Sequence record: PP989838.1
DNA from: Escherichia phage VTCCBPA_211
Reading direction: 5' to 3' (one strand)
Length of the DNA stretch: 64,000 nt
This document shows, in pieces, positions 3,766-37,425 of this stretch. The notes beneath the pieces were generated by a model. The model saw only the letters and a program-made list of their open reading frames with translations. It was not told the origin of the DNA and ran no database searches. How positions within the stretch are numbered: the stretch's first letter is position 1; each line of letters opens with the position of its first letter. The translations under genes were made by a program, and so were the position numbers.

Positions 3766-4665
3766 ATGGCTAAAATCTTTACTCTGGTTAACGAATCTGG
3801 TTTTAATGCTCTGGCTAACAATATCCGTAGCAATAATGCAGCGATCAAACAGGATGTTTCTAATTTTCTGTTAGGGCACTTACAGCACTTCCGTAGCAAC
3901 GGTAAAAAGTTAGACGTATTGCAGTCGGCGGTTGATTTTCTGTTAACCGAACGTTTCCGCGATATGGATGTTATTGCTACCGCAATCACTTTCTTAACTC
4001 CTATCAAGTTTAACACTGATGCGGCGAATGGTCGTAAGAAGTGGATTAATCTGGAAGGTGAAGCGAAAGCGAAAGAAGATGCGAAAGAAGCGCAAATTAA
4101 AACCAAAATGGAGCAAAACCGCGCTCGCTGGTCAAACGCTTTCGAAAACTTCGCGTTAGGTCGTGAAATTGAAGTCGATAACCCTAACTTCTTCAAAGGT
4201 TGCAATGACAACGTAGCGGCACACCTGCAAATTCCGGCAAAGAATAAAGAAGACTTTAACCAAGATATTTACGCTTTGGTTGAACGCTTGAATGCAATCC
4301 GTATTGAAGCCAAATTACTGGCTGATGAGCGCAACGGCGCAACCAGTGATAATACTATCGCCTTAAGTGAAGAAGTGGGCAAGGTTAAAAAGTCCTTTGA
4401 TTCACTCATCAAGAAAGTCACGGCATCGACGGTAGCGATCTCAGATGATTATCTGATGAACGCATCAAGCAAGGAGCTGGAATCACTCGATTCATACGCT
4501 GATGAAATGGAAAAGACTGTTGCAGCTATGCAGGAGAAGTTAGAAAGTCTGCGCGGTCGTATCTCTTCAACGGTTGCTACCCGTACCGAACAAGCTGCGA
4601 AAGAAGAAGAGGAAGAAGTATTGCGTAAAGCTGCTGAAATTATGGCGGCACGTCAGGCGGCATAA
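3766..4665 (+). CDS. hypothetical early protein (299 aa), C-terminal acidic coiled coil
   Basis: ATG 8 nt after AAAGG; first ORF after the boxA leader; strong terminator follows. Confidence 0.75.
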   Translation: MAKIFTLVNESGFNALANNIRSNNAAIKQDVSNFLLGHLQHFRSNGKKLDVLQSAVDFLLTERFRDMDVIATAITFLTPIKFNTDAANGRKKWINLEGEAKAKEDAKEAQIKTKMEQNRARWSNAFENFALGREIEVDNPNFFKGCNDNVAAHLQIPAKNKEDFNQDIYALVERLNAIRIEAKLLADERNGATSDNTIALSEEVGKVKKSFDSLIKKVTASTVAISDDYLMNASSKELESLDSYADEMEKTVAAMQEKLESLRGRISSTVATRTEQAAKEEEEEVLRKAAEIMAARQAA

Positions 4666-9379: not shown

Positions 9380-9456
9380 GCGCCCTTAGTTCAATTGGAC
9401 AGAACATCGGATTTCTAATCCGTCGGTTACAGGTTCGAATCCTGTAGGGTGCGCCA
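9380..9456 (+). tRNA. tRNA-Arg (anticodon UCU, reads AGA), CCA encoded
   Basis: Manual cloverleaf: acceptor GCGCCCT/AGGGTGC, D arm GTTC/GAAC, anticodon loop TTTCTAA, T arm ACAGG-TTCGAAT-CCTGT, 3' GCCA. Confidence 0.9.
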
Positions 9457-22386: not shown

Positions 22387-23634
22387 ATGTCAAAGATCAT
22401 TTTGGGAGACACAGGTTGTAAGGAATGTATCTCTCATGGTCGTGATAAAACCCACAACCACATGATTCTCTTCCGTAACGAAGAGACTGGTGAGGAGTGG
22501 GGAAGTTGTAACCGTTGTGGGAATTACGAAGTGTTCGAAAAGGGCACTACACCTACTCCAAACGAGAAGAAAGAGTTATCCCCTGAAGAGTTGAGAGAAG
22601 TCTTAGATGATTGCTTAGAGCTTCCTCAGGGTGAACTTACTCGCCGTTTAATCCCTAAAGCTGTATCAGAGCGGTTTGAGTGTCGTATTGGCCTCAGTCA
22701 AACTGATGGTCAGACACCAGACAGTTACTTCTTTCCTCGTGAACGTGATGGAAACATTGTCGGATACGAGGTTAAGCTGCTAGATAGTAAGAAGTTCTAT
22801 TACGTCGGCAGTGTGAAAGAAGCAGATTTGTTCGGTATGGCACAAGCTCAACGTGGAGATGTGTACAACAAGAAGCTGTTCATTTTTGAAGACCCGCTAT
22901 CCTGTATGTCAGGTTTCCATGTCCTTACAGCTTTTACAAATGCAACAAATATTAAACCAGCATGTGTTTCTTTACCGTTCGGTGCAGGTTCAATCTCTTC
23001 TGTGTTGTCTCGTAACCGAGACTTCGTAAATGGTTTTGAGGAGGTTGTGCTCTGCATGGACAACGATGATGCAGGTGAGATAGCTTTAACAAAAGGTCGT
23101 TCTTTATTCCCTCATGTTAAGTTTGCTCGTATTCCTAAAGGAACTTTCCCATACAACGGTGTGGAGAAAGAGATTAAGGATGCGAATGACATGCTTCTGT
23201 CTGGTCGTGGTCAAGAGTTATTCAACATTCTCAAGTACTCAGCAAAGCGGGAATCTCCTGCTGGAGCTGTAACAATCTTTGATTGTCTTGATGATGCTCT
23301 GAAGAAAGCGGAGTGGGGTATCCCATATCCGTGGAAGACTCTGAATGAGATGACCTTCGGTATTCGATGGGGAGAGGTGGTAGCAATTGGTGGTGGAGTA
23401 GGGAGTGGTAAAACACTCATTGCTCACGAGCTGGTTGCTCATCTGTGCTTAGAGCATGGTTTTAATGGAGGTGGCTTCTTCTTGGAAGAGAAGGTAGGCA
23501 TGTCTGTTAAGAACATTGCTGGTAAGTCAGCATCAATTCCTTTCCACCGACCTGATGTTGAATATGATGAGGAGGATTTGCGTAATGAAGCACTTCGTTA
23601 TGCAGACAAATTCTTCTTGTATGACAACTTCGGT
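22387..23634 (+). CDS. DNA primase/helicase (T7 gp4-like), exon 1
   Basis: Zn finger CKEC..CNRC, TOPRIM VLCMDNDDAGE, Walker A GGGVGSGKT; ends ..LYDNFG at a U-G splice-site pairing. Confidence 0.85.
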
Positions 23635-24355
23635 TAACACAATGGCCGAAGTAAAACTAGGTGAATTCAGGGAAAGCTAAGTCGAAAGATATGCCAATCC
23701 TGAGCGAAGCCCTTCTCCTCCTATAGCACAAGGAGGTAATTCATGAAACGAATCACAGGATACGAAAACTACACCATTTCTGAAAACGGTGAGGTTTTTA
23801 ATAACAGAGGTGCTCAATTAAAACCTTTTGTGAATAAAGGCAGAAATGAGTACTTGAGAGTGACACTAAGCTGTAGAGGGAAATCTAAACATTTTCTTGT
23901 TCACAGATTGGTTGCTCAAGAATACCTTAAAGATTTTAACCCGAATCTCCAAGTAGACCACATGGATGGTGACAGTAGAAACAACCACCACTCAAACCTC
24001 CAAATGGTTACTTGCAAAGAAAATAACTCACTTGCTTCACAAAGAGAGTGGGAAAAGGGTGGTAATCAAAAACATTCTGATGATACAGTAAGGGAGGCCA
24101 TAAGGCTTTCTCTAGATATGTCAACAGATAAGGTTGGGGAATTACTAGGTATCTCAGGGAGACAAGTCAGACGATACAGAAGTTTGACAAGTCGAAGATT
24201 TGTTGGAGAAGGGAACGTGCAGAGACTATCCGAAAGGAGTACACTGGAAGCTAATGACAGTGGAAGCGCCTAGCCCCTTAACAGGGTGATGATATAGTCC
24301 AATCCCGTGGGAAACTGCGGGCAGTAGCCATGATGCTACGGGTAAAGGAGTTGCG
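23635..24355 (+). mobile_element. group I intron in the primase/helicase gene
   Basis: P1: exon CTTCGGT pairs with GCCGAAG (U-G at the splice site); starts TAACACAATGG like the polymerase intron; GATATAGTC core; carries an HNH ORF; 3' boundary is a best guess (alternative 24340). Confidence 0.7.
23743..24273 (+). CDS. intron-encoded HNH homing endonuclease (NUMOD4-like N-terminus + HNH, 176 aa)
   Basis: GYENYTISENGEVFN; VHRLVAQEYL..VDHMDGDSRNNHHSNLQ..TCKENN; RBS AAGGAGG. Confidence 0.85.
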   Translation: MKRITGYENYTISENGEVFNNRGAQLKPFVNKGRNEYLRVTLSCRGKSKHFLVHRLVAQEYLKDFNPNLQVDHMDGDSRNNHHSNLQMVTCKENNSLASQREWEKGGNQKHSDDTVREAIRLSLDMSTDKVGELLGISGRQVRRYRSLTSRRFVGEGNVQRLSERSTLEANDSGSA

Positions 24356-24916
24356 TCCTTTATTGAATTATTGCAAAATGAATGGGAAGACATTAAACAG
24401 TGTATCCGTTTCTGGGTAGTTGAAAACCAGTGTAAGTTCATCATCCTTGATAACATTACCGCTCTGGTGTCTCATTTAACACCTTCAGAGATTAACACTG
24501 AAATCAGTAAGATTGCTTCCGAGCTTGCTGGTATGTGTAAAGAGTTAGACTTTACCGCTTTCGTGCTATCTCACCTTAATGCTCCGGCAGGTGGTGCTCC
24601 TCATGAAGAAGGTGGACAGGTACGTGAAGTACAGTTCACTGGCTCTCGTTCTCTTATGCGTTGGTGTCAGTGTATCATTGGCTTTGAGCGTGACAAGCAA
24701 GCTGACGGCTTAGCTAAGAACCTCTCAGTCATTCGATTACTGAAAGAACGTAACTACGGTCAGACAGGTGTATGTTATACTAAGTATATCAGTGAAACCG
24801 GTAGACTTGTAGAAAGGGAAGACTTTGAAGTTGATGAAGATAATCCATTCGTTTTAACTAACGGAGAGGATGCAGCTTCTCTCGTCAACCAAGCAGATGG
24901 AGCTTCACCGTGGTAA
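24356..24916 (+). CDS. DNA primase/helicase, exon 2
   Basis: Frame open from 24293; junction gives [26 protein letters not shown], aligning with T7 gp4 LYDSF..DVIILDHIS. Confidence 0.75.
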
Positions 24917-34255: not shown

Positions 34256-34678
34256 ATGCCATTACCAACTAGACACCAAAACCGTTTCCTAGTTCTTAAG
34301 TGGGATGATATCGAAATGAATCTCACTGAACATGAACTGGATTTGTTCCATGAGCTTTTGTCAGAGATTCGCTCTGGTATTCCTGAACGTCAGTATGTAG
34401 TTATCAGTGATAAACATCCTCAAGAGTTTGAAGAAGCTTGGGGTATGAAGTTAGCTTACATTCAGAGAGCTATCCGAGAAAGAGAAGAAGTCGCTAACCA
34501 AAGGGTTGTGGCTCATTTAGTACGAGAGCAACCTCGTGAAGCTAGGGCTAACCATGCACCACCTCCACCTACTCCTCGGATAGTTGTTAACGGGGCGGTT
34601 AGGGCTTACAGTTATGAAGCTACCATATCAGATATGATAGAAGATAACCAAGCATTTACAGATTTACTTTACCAATAA
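34256..34678 (+). CDS. hypothetical protein (140 aa)
   Basis: Start 2 nt after the upstream stop; track ORF. Confidence 0.65.
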   Translation: MPLPTRHQNRFLVLKWDDIEMNLTEHELDLFHELLSEIRSGIPERQYVVISDKHPQEFEEAWGMKLAYIQRAIREREEVANQRVVAHLVREQPREARANHAPPPPTPRIVVNGAVRAYSYEATISDMIEDNQAFTDLLYQ

Positions 34679-34694
34679 TTTAAAGGAGTATAAA

Positions 34695-36040
34695 GTGAGC
34701 AACCCGGACGCTCTTCCATTTTTGACAGAGATGACTGTCGCTGATATAATCTCTAAGCAAGCAAAGCACGGAGTGAGTTTCAACCGAAGAAATGCTCGGT
34801 GGTATGTTCACCTCCTTAAAGAGATTATTGTTAATATTGACAGAGAGTTGATTCCTCTCTTACCTAAGATGAGATTAGACGGCTCTACTTATATGAAGCC
34901 GTTTAAGAAGTCTGGAGCTTTACAGAAGTGGCCTCAAGCTTATTGTGATAGGGTTGGGCTGAAGAGAGAAGATATTGGTGGAGCTTTCACCTGTGTCGAA
35001 TATGTAGACTTTGACCCATCGAAAGATGCACGAGTTAAAGAAGCTCTTATGGATGAGGGCTTTCTTCCTCCAGAGTTTAATGTATCTAAGAAGCCTTGGA
35101 ATACTTTCGAAATTAAGAAAGATATGAGAAAGTATGGAACATACCAAGCATGGTATACTGCTTGGATGCGAGGCAATGCTAAGCAGAAGCAGACAGCCGA
35201 GATGGTTGACGCTGATATTAAGAAGTTCTTAGAAAAGCATTTCAGGTTTAAAACTAAGAACTATATGAAGGCTTACGTATTTGGTTTGGGATTAAACCCT
35301 AATCGTCGTAATCCTGTAACGTTTGATGAGATTAAGAAAGCGCTAGCCACATCAAACAAGTGGCCTACAGCTCCTACAAACCTCGAGGAGACTCTTGAAG
35401 AAGGGTTAGGGGGTGAGCTAGGGAGTGTCGGAAGTTTGCTTAAGAGACGCGTTGTAGCGGCTCACAGGCTAGGTCTTATCAGTGGACTTATAGCAAAGGA
35501 ACGCGAAGATGGTAAACTTTCGGCAGAAGCTAACAGCTGCGCTACGCCGACTTTTCGATTCAAACATCGTATCGTGGTTAATATTCCCTCCCGTGGTCTG
35601 TTTGGTCACGAGTGTCGCAGTTTGTTTGAGTCTGACTATAACTCAGACAGTGATCACTCTCGTCCTTTCGTTATTACTAACGCTGTTCCTGATGGTTGTT
35701 ATATACGAAAAGGTACTAACGTAATTTACGAGAAAGGTAAGCCGGGGAAGAAAGACAAACCTGTAGGCGCTTACAAATATTACATACCCGCTGGTAAAGA
35801 AGTATTCTTAGGGTATGATGGTTCTGGACTTGAACTTCGTATGTTAGTGCATTATCTTGTGAAAGAGTGCCTTGACATGATGGAAGAAGCCAAAGCAGAG
35901 AACGATAAAATTAAGTATCTAAGGGCTGAGAAAGGTTTAGAGGCTGCTTATACTTATCGAGAGGTTCTTCTCTCAGGTGATATCCATTCCCACAACCAGA
36001 AACTAGCTGGCCTACCAACTAGAGATAATGCAAAGACGTT
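34695..36040 (+). CDS. family-A DNA polymerase (polymerase domain), exon 1, GTG start
   Basis: RBS AAAGGAG; ends ..LPTRDNAKT(F), the first half of motif B (RxxAKxxxYGxxYG). Confidence 0.85.
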
Positions 36041-36728
36041 TAACACAATGGGCGTCTATAAATTCCTTTAATTCGGTGGACATCTAGAACAGATAATACC
36101 GAGCCAAGCCATCCAATCTGCCTTGAAGACAAGGAGGTGGATTATGATTTGCAGGATTTGTAAAGAAGATAAAAGCGAAGACAATTTCCACAGAAACAGA
36201 ACAAACGTGACTGGACTAGACTACAGGTGTAAAGCTTGTAGGAGAGAAGAAGCACGAATTGGAAGAGAGAGCAATTACTTCCAACACTACTGTAGAGGAA
36301 AGAAATCTGAATGTAAGATAAAGGGTTATGATTTTGACTTAACTCCAGAGTTCTTAGAAGAGATTTGGACAGGATATTGTCCAATATTTGGTGTAGAAAT
36401 CTCAAGAGCTTCGGAAGGAAGAGGATCTCACAACTCAGCACATTTGGACAGAATAGATTCAAGTAAGGGTTACCTAATAGGTAACGTATCTTGGATTAGC
36501 GGCAGAGCAAACCGTATAAAATATGATGCTACTGCTAAAGAGCTTAGATCTATTGCAGATTGGATGGAAGGTGTAACGACTAGTCGTGATGAGTTTAGCG
36601 ACGTAGGGCCAAGCGGCTCGAAACAAGGAACCTCTTAAAAGAGGAAGAGATAGTCTGCTCTGCATGGGGACATGCAGCAGTTCATAAGAGAACGGGGGGA
36701 GTGGTAGCGTACTCCCTTGAACATCAGG
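36041..36728 (+). mobile_element. group I intron in DNA polymerase motif B (T4 td-like core)
   Basis: P1: exon AGACGTT pairs with GGCGTCT; starts TAACACAATGG; ATAGTCTGCTCTGCATGGGGACATGCAGC nearly identical to the T4 td intron core as I recall it; ends ..GAACATCAGG. Confidence 0.8.
36144..36638 (+). CDS. intron-encoded HNH homing endonuclease (164 aa)
   Basis: RBS AAGGAGGTGG; N-terminal CxxC..CxxC; HNSAHLDRIDSSKGYLIGNVSWISGRANRIK. Confidence 0.85.
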   Translation: MICRICKEDKSEDNFHRNRTNVTGLDYRCKACRREEARIGRESNYFQHYCRGKKSECKIKGYDFDLTPEFLEEIWTGYCPIFGVEISRASEGRGSHNSAHLDRIDSSKGYLIGNVSWISGRANRIKYDATAKELRSIADWMEGVTTSRDEFSDVGPSGSKQGTS

Positions 36729-37227
36729 TATCTATGGATTTCTATATGGGGCAGGCGCAGCTAAGATTGGAGAGATTGTTGGAGGAGGCGCTCAAGAGGG
36801 TGAAATTCTCAGAGAACGTTTCTTAGCAGAATGCCCTTGTATCCCAATTGTCTTGGAGAGAGTACAAGCTCGTGCAGAAACAGGCACTCTTGAAGGTGTG
36901 GATGGTCGTAAGTTGACCATGAGACGGGATGCCACTGGTAAAGTTATGGTTCATAAAGCACTAAACACTTTACTTCAGAGTGCGGGTGCTATTGTCATGA
37001 AATATTCTATTCTCTTCACAAACAAGTGGGTAGATCAGCAGAACATTAGGGGTAACAAAGTAATTGACTACCATGATGAAGCTCAGTGGTCTGTTAACCG
37101 TAACGATGTTGATAAGATGAAAAAGATAGCTGAGACTTGTGTCAAGAAGGCGGGTGAGTACCTAAACATGCACTGTGAGCTAGCTTCTGATTGTAAAATC
37201 GGACTGAATTGGATGCAAACTCACTAA
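36729..37227 (+). CDS. family-A DNA polymerase, exon 2
   Basis: Splice restores RDNAKTF-IYGFLYGAGAAKIG (motif B); then motif C region VIDYHDEAQW; total 614 aa in frame. Confidence 0.85.
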
Positions 37228-37296
37228 ACACAGAACTGAAAGAATAGAATACAAATGAACTAGTCTTATTGATTAGTTCATAATAAGGAGATTGAA

Positions 37297-37425
37297 GTGG
37301 AAGAGATGCCATCGGATTGGTGTTATCGTCAGAGCGCCATCTGTAATGAACAAGGACGTCCTGATGAAGCTGAGTTTTATTTAGAACTAGCTGAACTGTG
37401 GAAAGAACGAGAGGAGAAAGAGTGA
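37297..37425 (+). CDS. hypothetical small protein (42 aa), GTG start
   Basis: RBS TAAGGAG 5 nt upstream; hand translation. Confidence 0.4.
   Translation: MEEMPSDWCYRQSAICNEQGRPDEAEFYLELAELWKEREEKE

What the first reader, a model, noticed from the sequence alone, without database searches (positions are those of the whole stretch)
36041..36728. A T4 td-like group I intron with an HNH endonuclease sits inside motif B of the DNA polymerase
Exon 1 ends ..PTRDNAKT(F). After 688 nt the frame resumes with IYGFLYGAGAAKIG, which restores the family-A motif B (RDNAKTFIYGFLYGAG).

P1 pairs exon AGACGTT with GGCGTCT in the intron. The only boundaries that satisfy a U at the 5' site, a terminal G and the reading frame are 36040|36041 and 36728|36729. 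Total coding length is then 1845 nt, which is in frame.

The 3' core ATAGTCTGCTCTGCATGGGGACATGCAGC..CGGGG..GAACATCAGG is nearly identical to the T4 td intron core as I remember it (ATAGTCTGCTCTGCATGGTGACATGCAGC..CCGGGG..GAACATAATG).

The intron ORF (36144-36638, RBS AAGGAGGTGG) is an HNH enzyme with an N-terminal CxxC..CxxC finger. Introns in T7-like DNA polymerase genes are known (Bonocora and Shub). A td-like core in this lineage, paired with a sibling intron in the helicase gene, is worth documenting.
Basis: partly seen in the sequence, partly recalled or inferred. Interest (0 to 1): 0.55.

Follow-up and report, generated by a model that had tools for sequence, protein, structure and literature searches.

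The report
Group I intron in phage polymerase
A 688-base self-splicing-type (group I) intron carrying its own DNA-cutting enzyme gene interrupts the DNA polymerase gene of this phiEco32-like coliphage; this kind of element is well known in phages, so the find is real but largely ordinary.

Summary
Window 36041-36728 is a 688-nt insertion in the family-A DNA polymerase gene. The window comes from a Kuravirus (phiEco32-like) coliphage, not a T7-group phage.

- **Boundaries.** Removing the insertion gives a 1845-nt CDS. It is collinear, without gaps, with the intron-less polymerase of the closest relative (602/614 aa).
- **RNA.** It is a subgroup IA2 group I intron with P1, P3-P9.2, P7.1/P7.2 and no P2. 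Across 11 same-site homologues, 92% of pair cells are paired and 49 of 75 pairs show compensatory change. An ORF-less homologue passes the Rfam Intron_gpI threshold.
- **Relatives.** The recalled T4 td match is real (28/29 nt in P7'-P9). However, T4 nrdB is closer overall, and the 5' half points to same-site polymerase introns (Yersinia phage Berlin and others), not to either T4 intron.
- **ORF.** ORF 36144-36638 lies in the P6a loop and reads on through P7, P7.1, P7.2 and P3' into P8. No Pfam or NCBIfam model matches it. The predicted fold and a family profile match restriction enzyme PacI, an HNH variant that lacks the catalytic His and uses a Tyr.

Splicing and cleavage are inferred, not shown. 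Verdict: a new member of a known kind, of low to moderate interest.

The parts
34695..36040 (+). Exon 1 of the family-A DNA polymerase gene. It ends with the first two bases of the Phe codon of motif B (..RDNAKT-F).
   Evidence: Collinear with the intron-less CDS of L001. Pfam DNA_pol_A hits the spliced product at 8e-21.
36034..36057 (+). P1: exon AGACGUU (36034-36040) paired with the internal guide GGCGUCU (36051-36057). The splice-site U36040 pairs with G36051.
   Evidence: 7 bp, 100% of cells paired in 11 homologues, with one compensatory exon/intron change.
36041..36728 (+). Group I intron, subgroup IA2, 688 nt, no P2. It ends with the terminal guanosine G36728.
   Evidence: An exact 688-nt indel against intron-less relatives. 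Covariation analysis. The ORF-less homologue L006 scores 62.9 bits on Rfam RF00028, gathering score 50. The window itself scores only 19.4 bits because of the ORF.
36063..36103 (+). 5' core. P3 5' strand 36063-36068. P4 36072-36078 with 36097-36103. P5 36082-36085 with 36091-36094.
   Evidence: All six P3 pairs show compensatory changes. P4 is 100% paired, with 3 covarying pairs.
36109..36567 (+). P6/P6a: a 13-bp helix (36109-36121 with 36555-36567) that encloses most of the ORF. Its 3' strand also encodes the D-W-M-E residues of the ORF.
   Evidence: A perfect 13-nt inverted repeat found by self-BLAST. 12 of 13 pairs covary.
36131..36140 (+). Shine-Dalgarno sequence AAGGAGGTGG of the intron ORF. 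It is predicted to be partly paired in a local hairpin.
   Evidence: Sequence. RNAfold of the window and 8 homologues pairs the SD in each. Regulation is inferred.
36144..36638 (+). Intron ORF, 164 aa: a PacI-like His-Me finger (HNH-superfamily) endonuclease with an N-terminal Cys4 zinc ribbon. The last ~20 codons are encoded by the ribozyme core.
   Evidence: phrog_3322 'endonuclease' at 7e-33. 202 homologues. Invariant D102 R103 Y110 N114 N123 K126. AlphaFold pLDDT 88.9, with the tail below 50. PacI is the top match.
36578..36655 (+). 3' core. P7 5' strand GACUA 36578-36582. P7.1 36583-36586 with 36599-36602. GUA linker. P7.2 36606-36610 with 36615-36619. P3 3' strand 36625-36630. P8 36631-36635 with 36640-36644, with the ORF stop codon UAA in its loop. 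P7 3' strand UAGUC 36651-36655.
   Evidence: P7 is invariant in 11 of 11 homologues. All pairs of P7.1 and P7.2, and five of the six P8 pairs counted, covary. P7.1 and P7.2 joined by GUA is the IA2 signature according to PMC3428280.
36660..36728 (+). Peripheral 3' helices. P9 36660-36666 with 36671-36677. P9.1 36680-36683 with 36690-36693. P9.2 36696-36702 with 36711-36717. Terminal G at 36728.
   Evidence: P7'-P9 is 28/29 identical to T4 td. The P9.1 region is identical to T4 nrdB.
36729..37227 (+). Exon 2 of the DNA polymerase. It starts with the third base of the Phe codon, then IYGFLYGAG.

Best explanation
Window 36041-36728 is a mobile group I intron of subgroup IA2 (the T4-phage type, here without P2). 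[quoted passage not shown]

**Proposed splicing (inferred).**
1. In the pre-mRNA the exon sequence AGACGUU pairs with the intron guide GGCGUCU to form P1.
2. The core folds into P3-P8, with the P3/P7 pseudoknot and the extra helices P7.1/P7.2.
3. A free guanosine bound in P7 attacks after U36040.
4. The terminal G36728 then takes its place and the exons are ligated. This restores ..AAG ACG TT|T ATC.. (K-T-F-I) and a 614-aa polymerase.

**Proposed mobility (inferred).** The P6a loop carries an ORF with its own ribosome-binding site. It encodes a 164-aa PacI-like His-Me finger nuclease with an N-terminal Cys4 zinc ribbon. The first His of the HNH motif is replaced by Arg, and an invariant Tyr lies in the loop between the two strands. 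This enzyme most likely cuts or nicks intron-less polymerase alleles of co-infecting relatives near the insertion site. Repair from the intron-bearing copy would then spread the intron (homing).

**Shown here:** exact boundaries, restoration of the frame, the RNA fold by covariation, homology to an Rfam-positive intron, and the fold class of the ORF.

**Inferred:** splicing, nuclease activity and homing.
For: **Boundaries and spliced product**
- The closest relatives have an allele shorter by exactly 688 nt. The spliced protein is gap-free and 602/614 identical.
- Only one pair of boundaries gives U(-1) and a terminal G.

**RNA structure**
- 75 base pairs in 12 helices: 92.4% of cells paired against at most 42% for slid controls. 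49 pairs have changes on both sides. 0 of 500 shuffles reach the observed values.
- P7 is invariant. P7.1 and P7.2 are joined by GUA, as in IA2 introns (PMC3428280).
- The ORF-less homologue in Ralstonia phage DU_RP_I scores 62.9 bits on Rfam Intron_gpI, gathering score 50.

**Homologues at the same site**
- The same 5' junction, AAGACGTT|TAACAyAATGGGCGTCTATAAA, is present in at least 10 other phage polymerase genes. It is annotated as a join in Yersinia phage Berlin.
- A polymerase intron 5 nt downstream, in LUZ24, is experimentally spliced (PMC10914365; site mapped).

**Exon flanks**
- Within 77 nt of the junction, the only two exon differences from the intron-less relative are at -6 and -3. 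Both are synonymous. They create the P1 pairing and match every intron-bearing allele.

**ORF**
- All family-invariant residues are retained.
- AlphaFold pLDDT is 88.9.
- PHROG families annotated as endonuclease match it.

**Distribution**
- The intron is absent from all of roughly 90 Kuravirus-like records.
- It is present at 90.5% identity in one metagenome contig.
Against: - No RNA or enzymatic data exist for this element.
- The window sequence itself scores only 19.4 bits on Rfam Intron_gpI, below the gathering score of 50. I attribute this to the ~430-nt ORF in P6a, but I did not test it by scoring an ORF-deleted window sequence.
- P10 is at best 3 bp by eye.
- The ORF has no Pfam or NCBIfam match and lacks the canonical catalytic His. 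Activity therefore rests on analogy with PacI.
- Translation of the last ~28 codons runs through P6a', P7, P7.1, P7.2, P3' and P8. This must compete with ribozyme folding.
Confidence: 0.92

Rival explanations
1. The insertion is a homing-endonuclease cassette that no longer splices, or never did. The polymerase would then be made as two separate polypeptides ('part A' and 'part B', as several GenBank records annotate it) that assemble in trans.
For: Many deposited genomes annotate the two halves as separate CDSs. Exon 1 runs into an in-frame stop 31 nt into the insertion. The window does not reach the Rfam threshold.
Against: - Exon 2 has no start codon or ribosome-binding site at the junction.
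- The cut would fall inside the O-helix, between K-T-F and I-Y-G.
- A complete group I core is kept by compensatory changes across at least 11 lineages. That is not expected without selection for splicing.
- The two exon changes next to the junction strengthen P1.
Confidence: 0.04
2. The ribozyme splices, but the ORF is a decayed or domesticated remnant that is no longer an active nuclease. The intron would then be immobile and simply inherited.
For: The canonical HNH histidine is missing, and no curated HNH model matches. The second zinc site of PacI is not conserved. The C-terminal tail is disordered.
Against: - The ORF is intact and keeps every residue that is invariant in 44 homologues, including the Tyr that aligns with the Tyr of PacI's GY motif. 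PacI is reported to use a tyrosine in the loop between the strands (PMC5714182); its residue number was not checked here.
- PacI itself is active without the His (PMC5714182).
- The intron is absent from about 90 close relatives, yet present at the same site in distant phage families. That pattern points to recent horizontal gain.
Confidence: 0.12
3. The element is an intein or another in-frame protein-level insertion.
For: It sits in a highly conserved catalytic motif, as inteins do.
Against: The exon 1 frame hits a stop codon after 10 codons (36069-36071). The ORF is in its own frame with its own SD and ATG. RNA covariation explains the conservation.
Confidence: 0.005

Closest known systems
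DNA polymerase intron of Yersinia phage Berlin / YpP-G and relatives (Autographiviridae). Annotated as a join in NC_008694 and noted in PMC6083498.
   Same: Identical insertion point (..AAGACGTT|TAACACAATGGGCGTCTATAAA..). Same IA2 ribozyme family without P2. ORF in the P6a loop. The 3' segment is 71% identical to the window and the first 80 nt match at 58 positions.
   Different: Its ORF is an Endonuclease VII (PF02945, DHHRN-type) protein, unrelated to the window's PacI-like ORF. The host is a T7-group phage, not a Kuravirus.
Same-site introns with the same ORF family: Aeromonas phages PT2 and BUCT695, Salmonella phages PKM.Hi.22.6 and Vi06, E. coli phage ULINTec4, Erwinia phage phiEa1H.
   Same: Same site, same ribozyme, same PacI-like ORF ending in ..DWME.. 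over the P6a 3' strand. PKM.Hi.22.6 and BUCT695 share the expanded P7.1 and an ORF that stops in the P8 loop.
   Different: Only 66-77% nucleotide identity. Different phage families (Autographiviridae, Grimontviridae). Mostly annotated as split polymerase genes, not as introns.
Pseudomonas phage LUZ24 polymerase intron (splicing shown experimentally: Ceyssens 2008, PMC10914365), and the Bas93/Bas94 intron.
   Same: Group I intron in motif B of a family-A polymerase, with the ORF in P6.
   Different: Inserted 5 nt further downstream, after ATC T in the Tyr codon. It has a P2-like hairpin and an Endo VII ORF.
phiI / W31 intron with I-TslI (Bonocora and Shub 2004, 2009).
   Same: IA2 intron with a His-Me endonuclease in P6a, in a T7-type polymerase gene.
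   Different: Inserted at motif C (E. coli Pol I position 881) according to PMC3428280. That site is occupied in the Kuravirus-like phage PE006 by an intron with an HNH_3 ORF unrelated to the window's. I could not read the original papers.
T4 nrdB and td introns (IA2).
   Same: Same subgroup, with P7.1 and P7.2. P7'-P9 is 28/29 identical to td. GCAGCAGTTCATAAGAGAACGGG is identical to nrdB.
   Different: Different host genes. The td 5' half is much less similar than the same-site polymerase introns (45 of 80 against 56-67). By reading the sequence, the window has only 5 nt between P1 and P3, so no P2; that td and nrdB have a P2 is from my own knowledge and was not mapped here. The ORFs are I-TevI (GIY-YIG) and I-TevIII, not PacI-like.
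Restriction endonuclease PacI (PDB 3LDY/3M7K). Group 20 of the His-Me finger superfamily in PMC5714182.
   Same: Best structural and profile match to the ORF. Shared N-terminal CxxC..CxxC. Shared motif DRxD..GY..N..NRIK, with Arg in place of the catalytic His and a conserved Tyr.
   Different: About 19-20% identity. PacI is a bacterial type II restriction enzyme with two zinc sites. The second site is not conserved here, and the biological role differs (intron homing against restriction).

Membership tests
Group I intron (Rfam RF00028), subgroup IA2 | U at the last exon position, paired with G in P1 | tested here: met
   U36040 pairs with G36051. The pair is U-G in 11 of 11 homologues.
Group I intron (Rfam RF00028), subgroup IA2 | Terminal guanosine at the 3' end of the intron | tested here: met
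   G36728. All 11 homologues end in G before [T/C]AT.TA.G.
Group I intron (Rfam RF00028), subgroup IA2 | Conserved core P3-P8 with the P3/P7 pseudoknot, supported by covariation | tested here: met
   All six P3 pairs are compensatory. P7 is invariant. P4, P5, P6 and P8 covary. Overall 92.4% paired, 0/500 shuffles.
Group I intron (Rfam RF00028), subgroup IA2 | P7.1 and P7.2 between P7 and P3', joined by G-U-A (the IA2 criterion quoted in PMC3428280) | tested here: met
   P7.1 at 36583-36602, GUA at 36603-36605, P7.2 at 36606-36619. All 9 pairs covary.
Group I intron (Rfam RF00028), subgroup IA2 | Score at or above the Rfam gathering threshold (50 bits) | tested here: inconclusive
   The window scores 19.4 bits, with the ORF inside P6a. 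The homologous ORF-less intron in L006 scores 62.9 bits. An ORF-deleted window sequence could not be submitted to the tool.
Group I intron (Rfam RF00028), subgroup IA2 | Guanosine-dependent self-splicing | not testable with these tools
   Needs RT-PCR or in vitro splicing.
HNH / His-Me finger nucleases | Beta-beta-alpha-metal fold | tested here: met
   In the AlphaFold model (pLDDT 88.9), strands 98-103 and 115-119 are followed by helix 120-126. The top matches are PacI, Cas9 HNH, McrA, Hpy99I and Gme HNH. This is a prediction, not an experimental structure.
HNH / His-Me finger nucleases | Catalytic histidine (first H of HNH) and a match to curated HNH models | tested here: not met
   The motif reads LDRID, with an invariant Arg where the His is expected. 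No Pfam hit at E up to 10 and no NCBIfam hit.
PacI-like subgroup (group 20 of PMC5714182) | His absent, a conserved Tyr in the loop between the strands, and the DRxD..GY..N..NRIK motif | tested here: met
   Y110 is invariant and aligns with the Tyr in PacI's GY motif. The profile matches PacI at E 0.002.
PacI-like subgroup (group 20 of PMC5714182) | Two Cys4 zinc sites | tested here: inconclusive
   The first site is conserved (C3, C6, C29, C32). Of the second site only C79 is conserved.
Mobile intron with a homing endonuclease | Intron-less alleles in close relatives and a sporadic distribution across distant hosts | tested here: met
   None of about 90 Kuravirus-like records has the intron. 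The same site is occupied in Autographiviridae and Grimontviridae.
Mobile intron with a homing endonuclease | The enzyme cleaves the intron-less allele near the insertion site | not testable with these tools
   Needs a cleavage assay.
T4 td intron specifically | td-type P2, a GIY-YIG I-TevI ORF, and td as the nearest relative | tested here: not met
   Only 5 nt lie between P1 and P3, so there is no P2. The ORF is PacI-like. nrdB and the polymerase introns are closer than td.

The most novel reading that the evidence does not exclude
The intron's enzyme is a working PacI-type nuclease that cuts DNA with the invariant Tyr110 instead of the usual histidine-activated water. That would make it a homing-endonuclease lineage with a catalytic mechanism not yet described for homing enzymes. 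In addition, the same ribozyme at the same polymerase site carries this ORF, an unrelated Endo VII-type ORF, or no ORF at all. This would be a natural series showing independent invasion of one intron by different nuclease genes.
Probability: 0.4. Interest if true: 0.45.

Novelty: new member of a known kind. Interest (0 to 1): 0.25.

Why it matters
**Annotation.** The polymerase of this phage should be annotated as one joined CDS, 34695..36040 with 36729..37227, not as two fragments. The same correction applies to many deposited genomes that list 'polymerase part A / part B'.

**Biology.** The window adds a phiEco32-like host to an intron family that moves between distant phage families at one hot spot of the polymerase O-helix.

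**Natural comparison set.** The closest relatives provide one. The same gene is found intron-less, with this intron, with a different intron 5 nt away, or with an intron in motif C. This would suit studies of intron homing and of exclusion between co-infecting phages.

**The ORF.** The only less ordinary point is the nuclease. It belongs to a very common but uncurated phage family that resembles PacI and lacks the canonical histidine.

Tried and rejected
**Searches that gave little**
- Rfam on the whole window at gathering threshold finds only a tRNA. The permissive search gives a weak, misregistered Intron_gpI hit.
- Pfam, NCBIfam and a single-sequence PDB search of the ORF find nothing.
- A degenerate 22-mer of the 5' end finds only 2 IMG/VR contigs. 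I used the GenBank phage collection instead.
- The original Bonocora and Shub papers and the PacI structure paper are not held. Statements about them come from citing papers or from my own knowledge.
- No paper in the library links Kuravirus or Gordonclarkvirinae with introns.

**Readings rejected**
- Intein: stop codons in the exon frame.
- Functional split gene: no start signal for exon 2, and a covarying ribozyme core.
- Recent transfer specifically from T4 td: nrdB and the same-site polymerase introns are closer.
- Relation of the ORF to the phiI-type ORF: the HNH_3 ORF of PE006 at motif C shows no similarity.

**Not done**
- I did not build a covariance model. The alignment has 287 columns, which I expected to exceed the calibration limit. 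BLAST homology and the pair counts already answered the question.
Full report
**1. What the window is**

Megablast of 34600-37300 against GenBank phage records finds Kuravirus / phiEco32-like coliphages (Gordonclarkvirinae). The best is Escherichia phage SDYTW1-F1-2-2_3, at 94.6% identity. No record covers more than 75% of the query. The missing part is the reported feature. In five records (H1-H4, H7) the match spans exactly 2013 nt, which is 2701 minus 688.

**2. Check of the observation**

The sequence is as described:
- Exon 1 ends ...GCAAAGACGTT at 36040.
- The insertion runs from TAACAC (36041) to CATCAGG (36728).
- Exon 2 starts TATCTATGG.

Joining 34695-36040 to 36729-37227 gives 1845 nt. 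That is the length of the annotated intron-less polymerase CDS in the closest relative (L001 1596-3440). The two proteins align without a gap, 602/614 identical, through PTRDNAKTF|IYGFLYGAG.

By sequence alone the indel could be placed one base further 3'.

Pfam places the spliced protein in DNA_pol_A (8e-21).

From my own knowledge of T7 gp5 and E. coli Pol I, RDNAKTFIYGFLYG is motif B (O-helix; T7 R518-G531). The split codon corresponds to T7 F524 / Pol I I760. It lies two codons before the Tyr/Phe that discriminates dideoxynucleotides.

**3. The RNA is a group I intron of subgroup IA2**

*Rfam.* Run directly on the window, Rfam gives only 19.4 bits for Intron_gpI. A 495-nt ORF sits inside the structure.

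*Homologues.* Sensitive BLAST of the insertion finds homologous insertions at the same polymerase position in many unrelated phages. I fetched ten:
- Aeromonas PT2 and BUCT695
- Ralstonia DU_RP_I
- Erwinia phiEa1H
- E. coli ULINTec4
- Salmonella PKM.Hi.22.6 and Vi06
- Pectobacterium Jarilo
- Klebsiella RCIP0053
- Yersinia Berlin

All share the junction AAGACGTT|TAACAyAATGGGCGTCTATAAA (Vi06 slightly diverged). All end in G before the I-Y codons.

The DU_RP_I copy has no ORF and is 243 nt long. It scores 62.9 bits on Rfam Intron_gpI, above the gathering score of 50.

*Structure.* Using that alignment as a guide, I wrote a structure for the window with 12 helices: P1, P3, P4, P5, P6/P6a, P7, P7.1, P7.2, P8, P9, P9.1 and P9.2. 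I then counted the pairs on an alignment of the 11 ORF-trimmed introns:

| Measure | Value |
|---|---|
| Cells forming a standard pair | 92.4% |
| Same, with partners slid by 1-3 columns | 36-42% |
| Pairs with changes on both sides | 49 of 75 |
| Shuffles reaching the observed values | 0 of 500 |

Further details from the same counts:
- All six P3 pairs are compensatory.
- P7 (GACUA/UAGUC) is invariant.
- P1 includes one compensatory change between exon and intron.
- Only 5 nt separate P1 from P3, so there is no P2.
- P7.1 and P7.2 are joined by GUA. A paper on a cyanophage polymerase intron with the same architecture uses this as the IA2 criterion (PMC3428280).

*Exon flanks.* Within 77 nt on either side of the junction, the exons differ from the intron-less relative at only two positions, -6 and -3 (AAA to AAG, ACT to ACG). 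Both changes are synonymous. Both turn mismatches into P1 pairs and reproduce the exon sequence of every intron-bearing allele. This fits co-conversion during homing, selection for P1, or both.

**4. The td claim**

I took the real T4 td and nrdB introns from NC_000866. The recalled 29-mer is right: 28/29 identical over P7'-P9.

| Compared with the window | 3' segment (P7 to the end) | First 80 nt |
|---|---|---|
| T4 td | 63.8% | 45 of 80 |
| T4 nrdB | 70.3% | 53 of 80 |
| Same-site polymerase introns | 65-71% | 56-67 of 80 |

The stretch GCAGCAGTTCATAAGAGAACGGG is identical to nrdB.

The intron therefore belongs to the T4-type IA2 group and is not specifically td-like. The 3' segment does not separate nrdB from the polymerase-site introns; the 5' half and the shared insertion site place it with the latter.

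**5. The ORF**

*Position.*
- ATG at 36144 follows AAGGAGGTGG (36131-36140).
- The ORF ends at UAA 36636-36638, in the loop of P8.
- It starts in the loop of a 13-bp P6a helix (36109-36121 with 36555-36567).
- Its last ~28 codons are also the 3' strand of P6a (codons D-W-M-E), J6/7, P7, P7.1, P7.2, P3' and half of P8.
- The part encoded by the core is predicted to be disordered (pLDDT below 50-70 from about residue 145).

*Family matches.*
- Pfam and NCBIfam give no match, even at permissive thresholds.
- PHROGs places it in phrog_3322 'endonuclease' (7e-33). There are weaker hits to families named endonuclease VII and HNH.
- 202 homologues were found.
- An alignment of 44 shows conserved C3, C6, C29, C32 and the invariant motif L-D-R-x-D...G-Y...N...A-N-x-x-K. 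An Arg stands where HNH enzymes have their first His.

*Fold.*
- AlphaFold with this alignment gives pLDDT 88.9.
- Other His-Me finger nucleases follow: Cas9 HNH, McrA, Hpy99I, DraIII, Gme HNH.
- A profile of the family also finds PacI end to end (E 0.002). It aligns LDRIDSSKGY..GN..IS.RANRIK with PacI's VDRSDSFEGY..QN..ACFICNRIK.

PacI is described as an HNH enzyme that lacks the catalytic His and uses a Tyr in the loop between the strands (PMC5714182 and PMC3384342). The precise assignment is 'PacI-like, histidine-less'.

*How common the family is.* At least 542 loci are confirmed in IMG/VR. Only about 4-5 of the best 80 have a T4-type intron core next to them. Most members are probably free-standing.

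**6. Same ribozyme, different cargo**

At this one site the intron carries one of three things:
- The PacI-like ORF: window, PT2, ULINTec4, PKM.Hi.22.6, BUCT695 and Vi06 (phiEa1H carries a much shorter ORF that I did not classify).
- An unrelated Endonuclease VII ORF (PF02945): Berlin by Pfam scan; Jarilo by its annotation and sequence motif; RCIP0053 by its C-terminal similarity to these, not scanned.
- No ORF: DU_RP_I.

The Berlin polymerase is annotated as a joined CDS whose implied intron length (680 nt) equals mine. PMC6083498 states that the Endo VII ORFs of Berlin, YpP-G and LUZ24 lie in a group I intron of the polymerase gene.

**7. Neighbouring sites**

- The LUZ24 intron has been shown to splice (PMC10914365). 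It is inserted 5 nt downstream of the window's site, after ATC T.
- The Kuravirus-like phages Bas93 and Bas94 have an intron at that same downstream position, annotated as a join.
- PE006 has a 607-nt intron between the His and Asp codons of motif C. That is the position reported for phiI and W31 (site 881; PMC3428280).

**8. Distribution**

- None of the roughly 90 Kuravirus-like records carries this intron.
- No record of any kind has a close full-length copy. The best is PT2, at 66% identity over 95% of the query.
- One short metagenome contig (Logan SRR27212853) is 90.5% identical across exon, intron and exon. A second contig is 73% identical. Both have the same junction and show further compensatory changes.

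**9. How it most likely works**

*Shown:* the boundaries, the restored frame, the fold, and the class of the ORF.

*Inferred from the established group I mechanism and from homing in T4 and SPO1-type phages:*
1. P1 presents U36040.
2. Guanosine bound in P7 attacks.
3. G36728 replaces it and the exons are ligated.
4. The nuclease made from the P6a ORF cuts or nicks intron-less alleles of co-infecting phages.
5. Repair copies the intron in, with a short co-conversion tract.

In the window and in 8 homologues the Shine-Dalgarno sequence is predicted to be paired in a local hairpin. This suggests restrained translation, as is known for T4 intron ORFs. I did not test it.

**10. Verdict**

The feature is real and correctly delimited. 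It is a new member of a known intron family at a known site, in a phage group where the held literature does not mention introns. The most unusual aspect is the PacI-like nuclease. Interest is low to moderate.

Noticed in passing
window 23635-24373 (exons 22387-23634 and 24374-24916): A second group I intron, 739 nt, in the primase/helicase gene. P1 pairs exon ACUUCGGU with GCCGAAGU, and the intron starts with the same TAACACAATGG. ORF 23743-24273 has HNH_3, NUMOD4 and HTH domains. Rfam Intron_gpI hits are sub-threshold (32.1 and 27.7 bits). The twelve best of 98 related phage records carry an allele exactly 739 nt shorter, and none of the 98 covers more than 80% of the query.
   Followed up: partly
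L002 (Bas93) CDS offset 1351; L022 (LUZ24); L003 (PE006) CDS offset 1692: Polymerase genes of Kuravirus-like phages carry introns at three different sites. This window's site is at offset 1346. A site 5 nt downstream is shared with the experimentally spliced LUZ24 intron and carries an Endo VII ORF. A third site lies between the His and Asp codons of motif C and carries an HNH_3 ORF.
   Followed up: partly
L017 (Klebsiella phage Henu2_3), L018 (Pseudomonas phage KIL4), L019 (E. coli phage ECO104 4-5-2): Introns with a 5' half 74-78% identical to this one interrupt terminase large-subunit genes. In these, P6 is a short hairpin without an ORF, and in KIL4 and Henu2_3 an ORF lies downstream of P9 (L019 has no long ORF there). 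Cronobacter phage CsaP_009 has a related fragment next to its capsid gene.
   Followed up: partly
Only about 4-5 of the best 80 loci show a T4-type intron core beside the gene. Most members are probably free-standing.
   Followed up: partly
window 36144-36638 (protein residues 55-141): The ORF also matches PHROG families named 'Srd anti-sigma factor' (phrog_1400, 1.6e-5) and 'decoy of host sigma70' (phrog_4592, 0.008). This suggests those T4-type proteins contain a related domain.
   Followed up: no
window 36109-36146 and the homologous regions of L004, L007-L011, L014, L016: The Shine-Dalgarno sequence of the intron ORF is predicted to be base-paired with an upstream anti-SD stretch in the window and in all 8 homologues folded. 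In the window this hairpin competes with the 5' strand of P6a.
   Followed up: partly
L004 (Aeromonas phage PT2) 2501-3178 and about 3800-4185: The PT2 polymerase gene appears to carry two insertions: the motif B intron and a second one with a 'homing endonuclease' ORF before the last 57 codons.
   Followed up: no
window 9380-9456: A tRNA-Arg gene with anticodon TCT.
   Followed up: no
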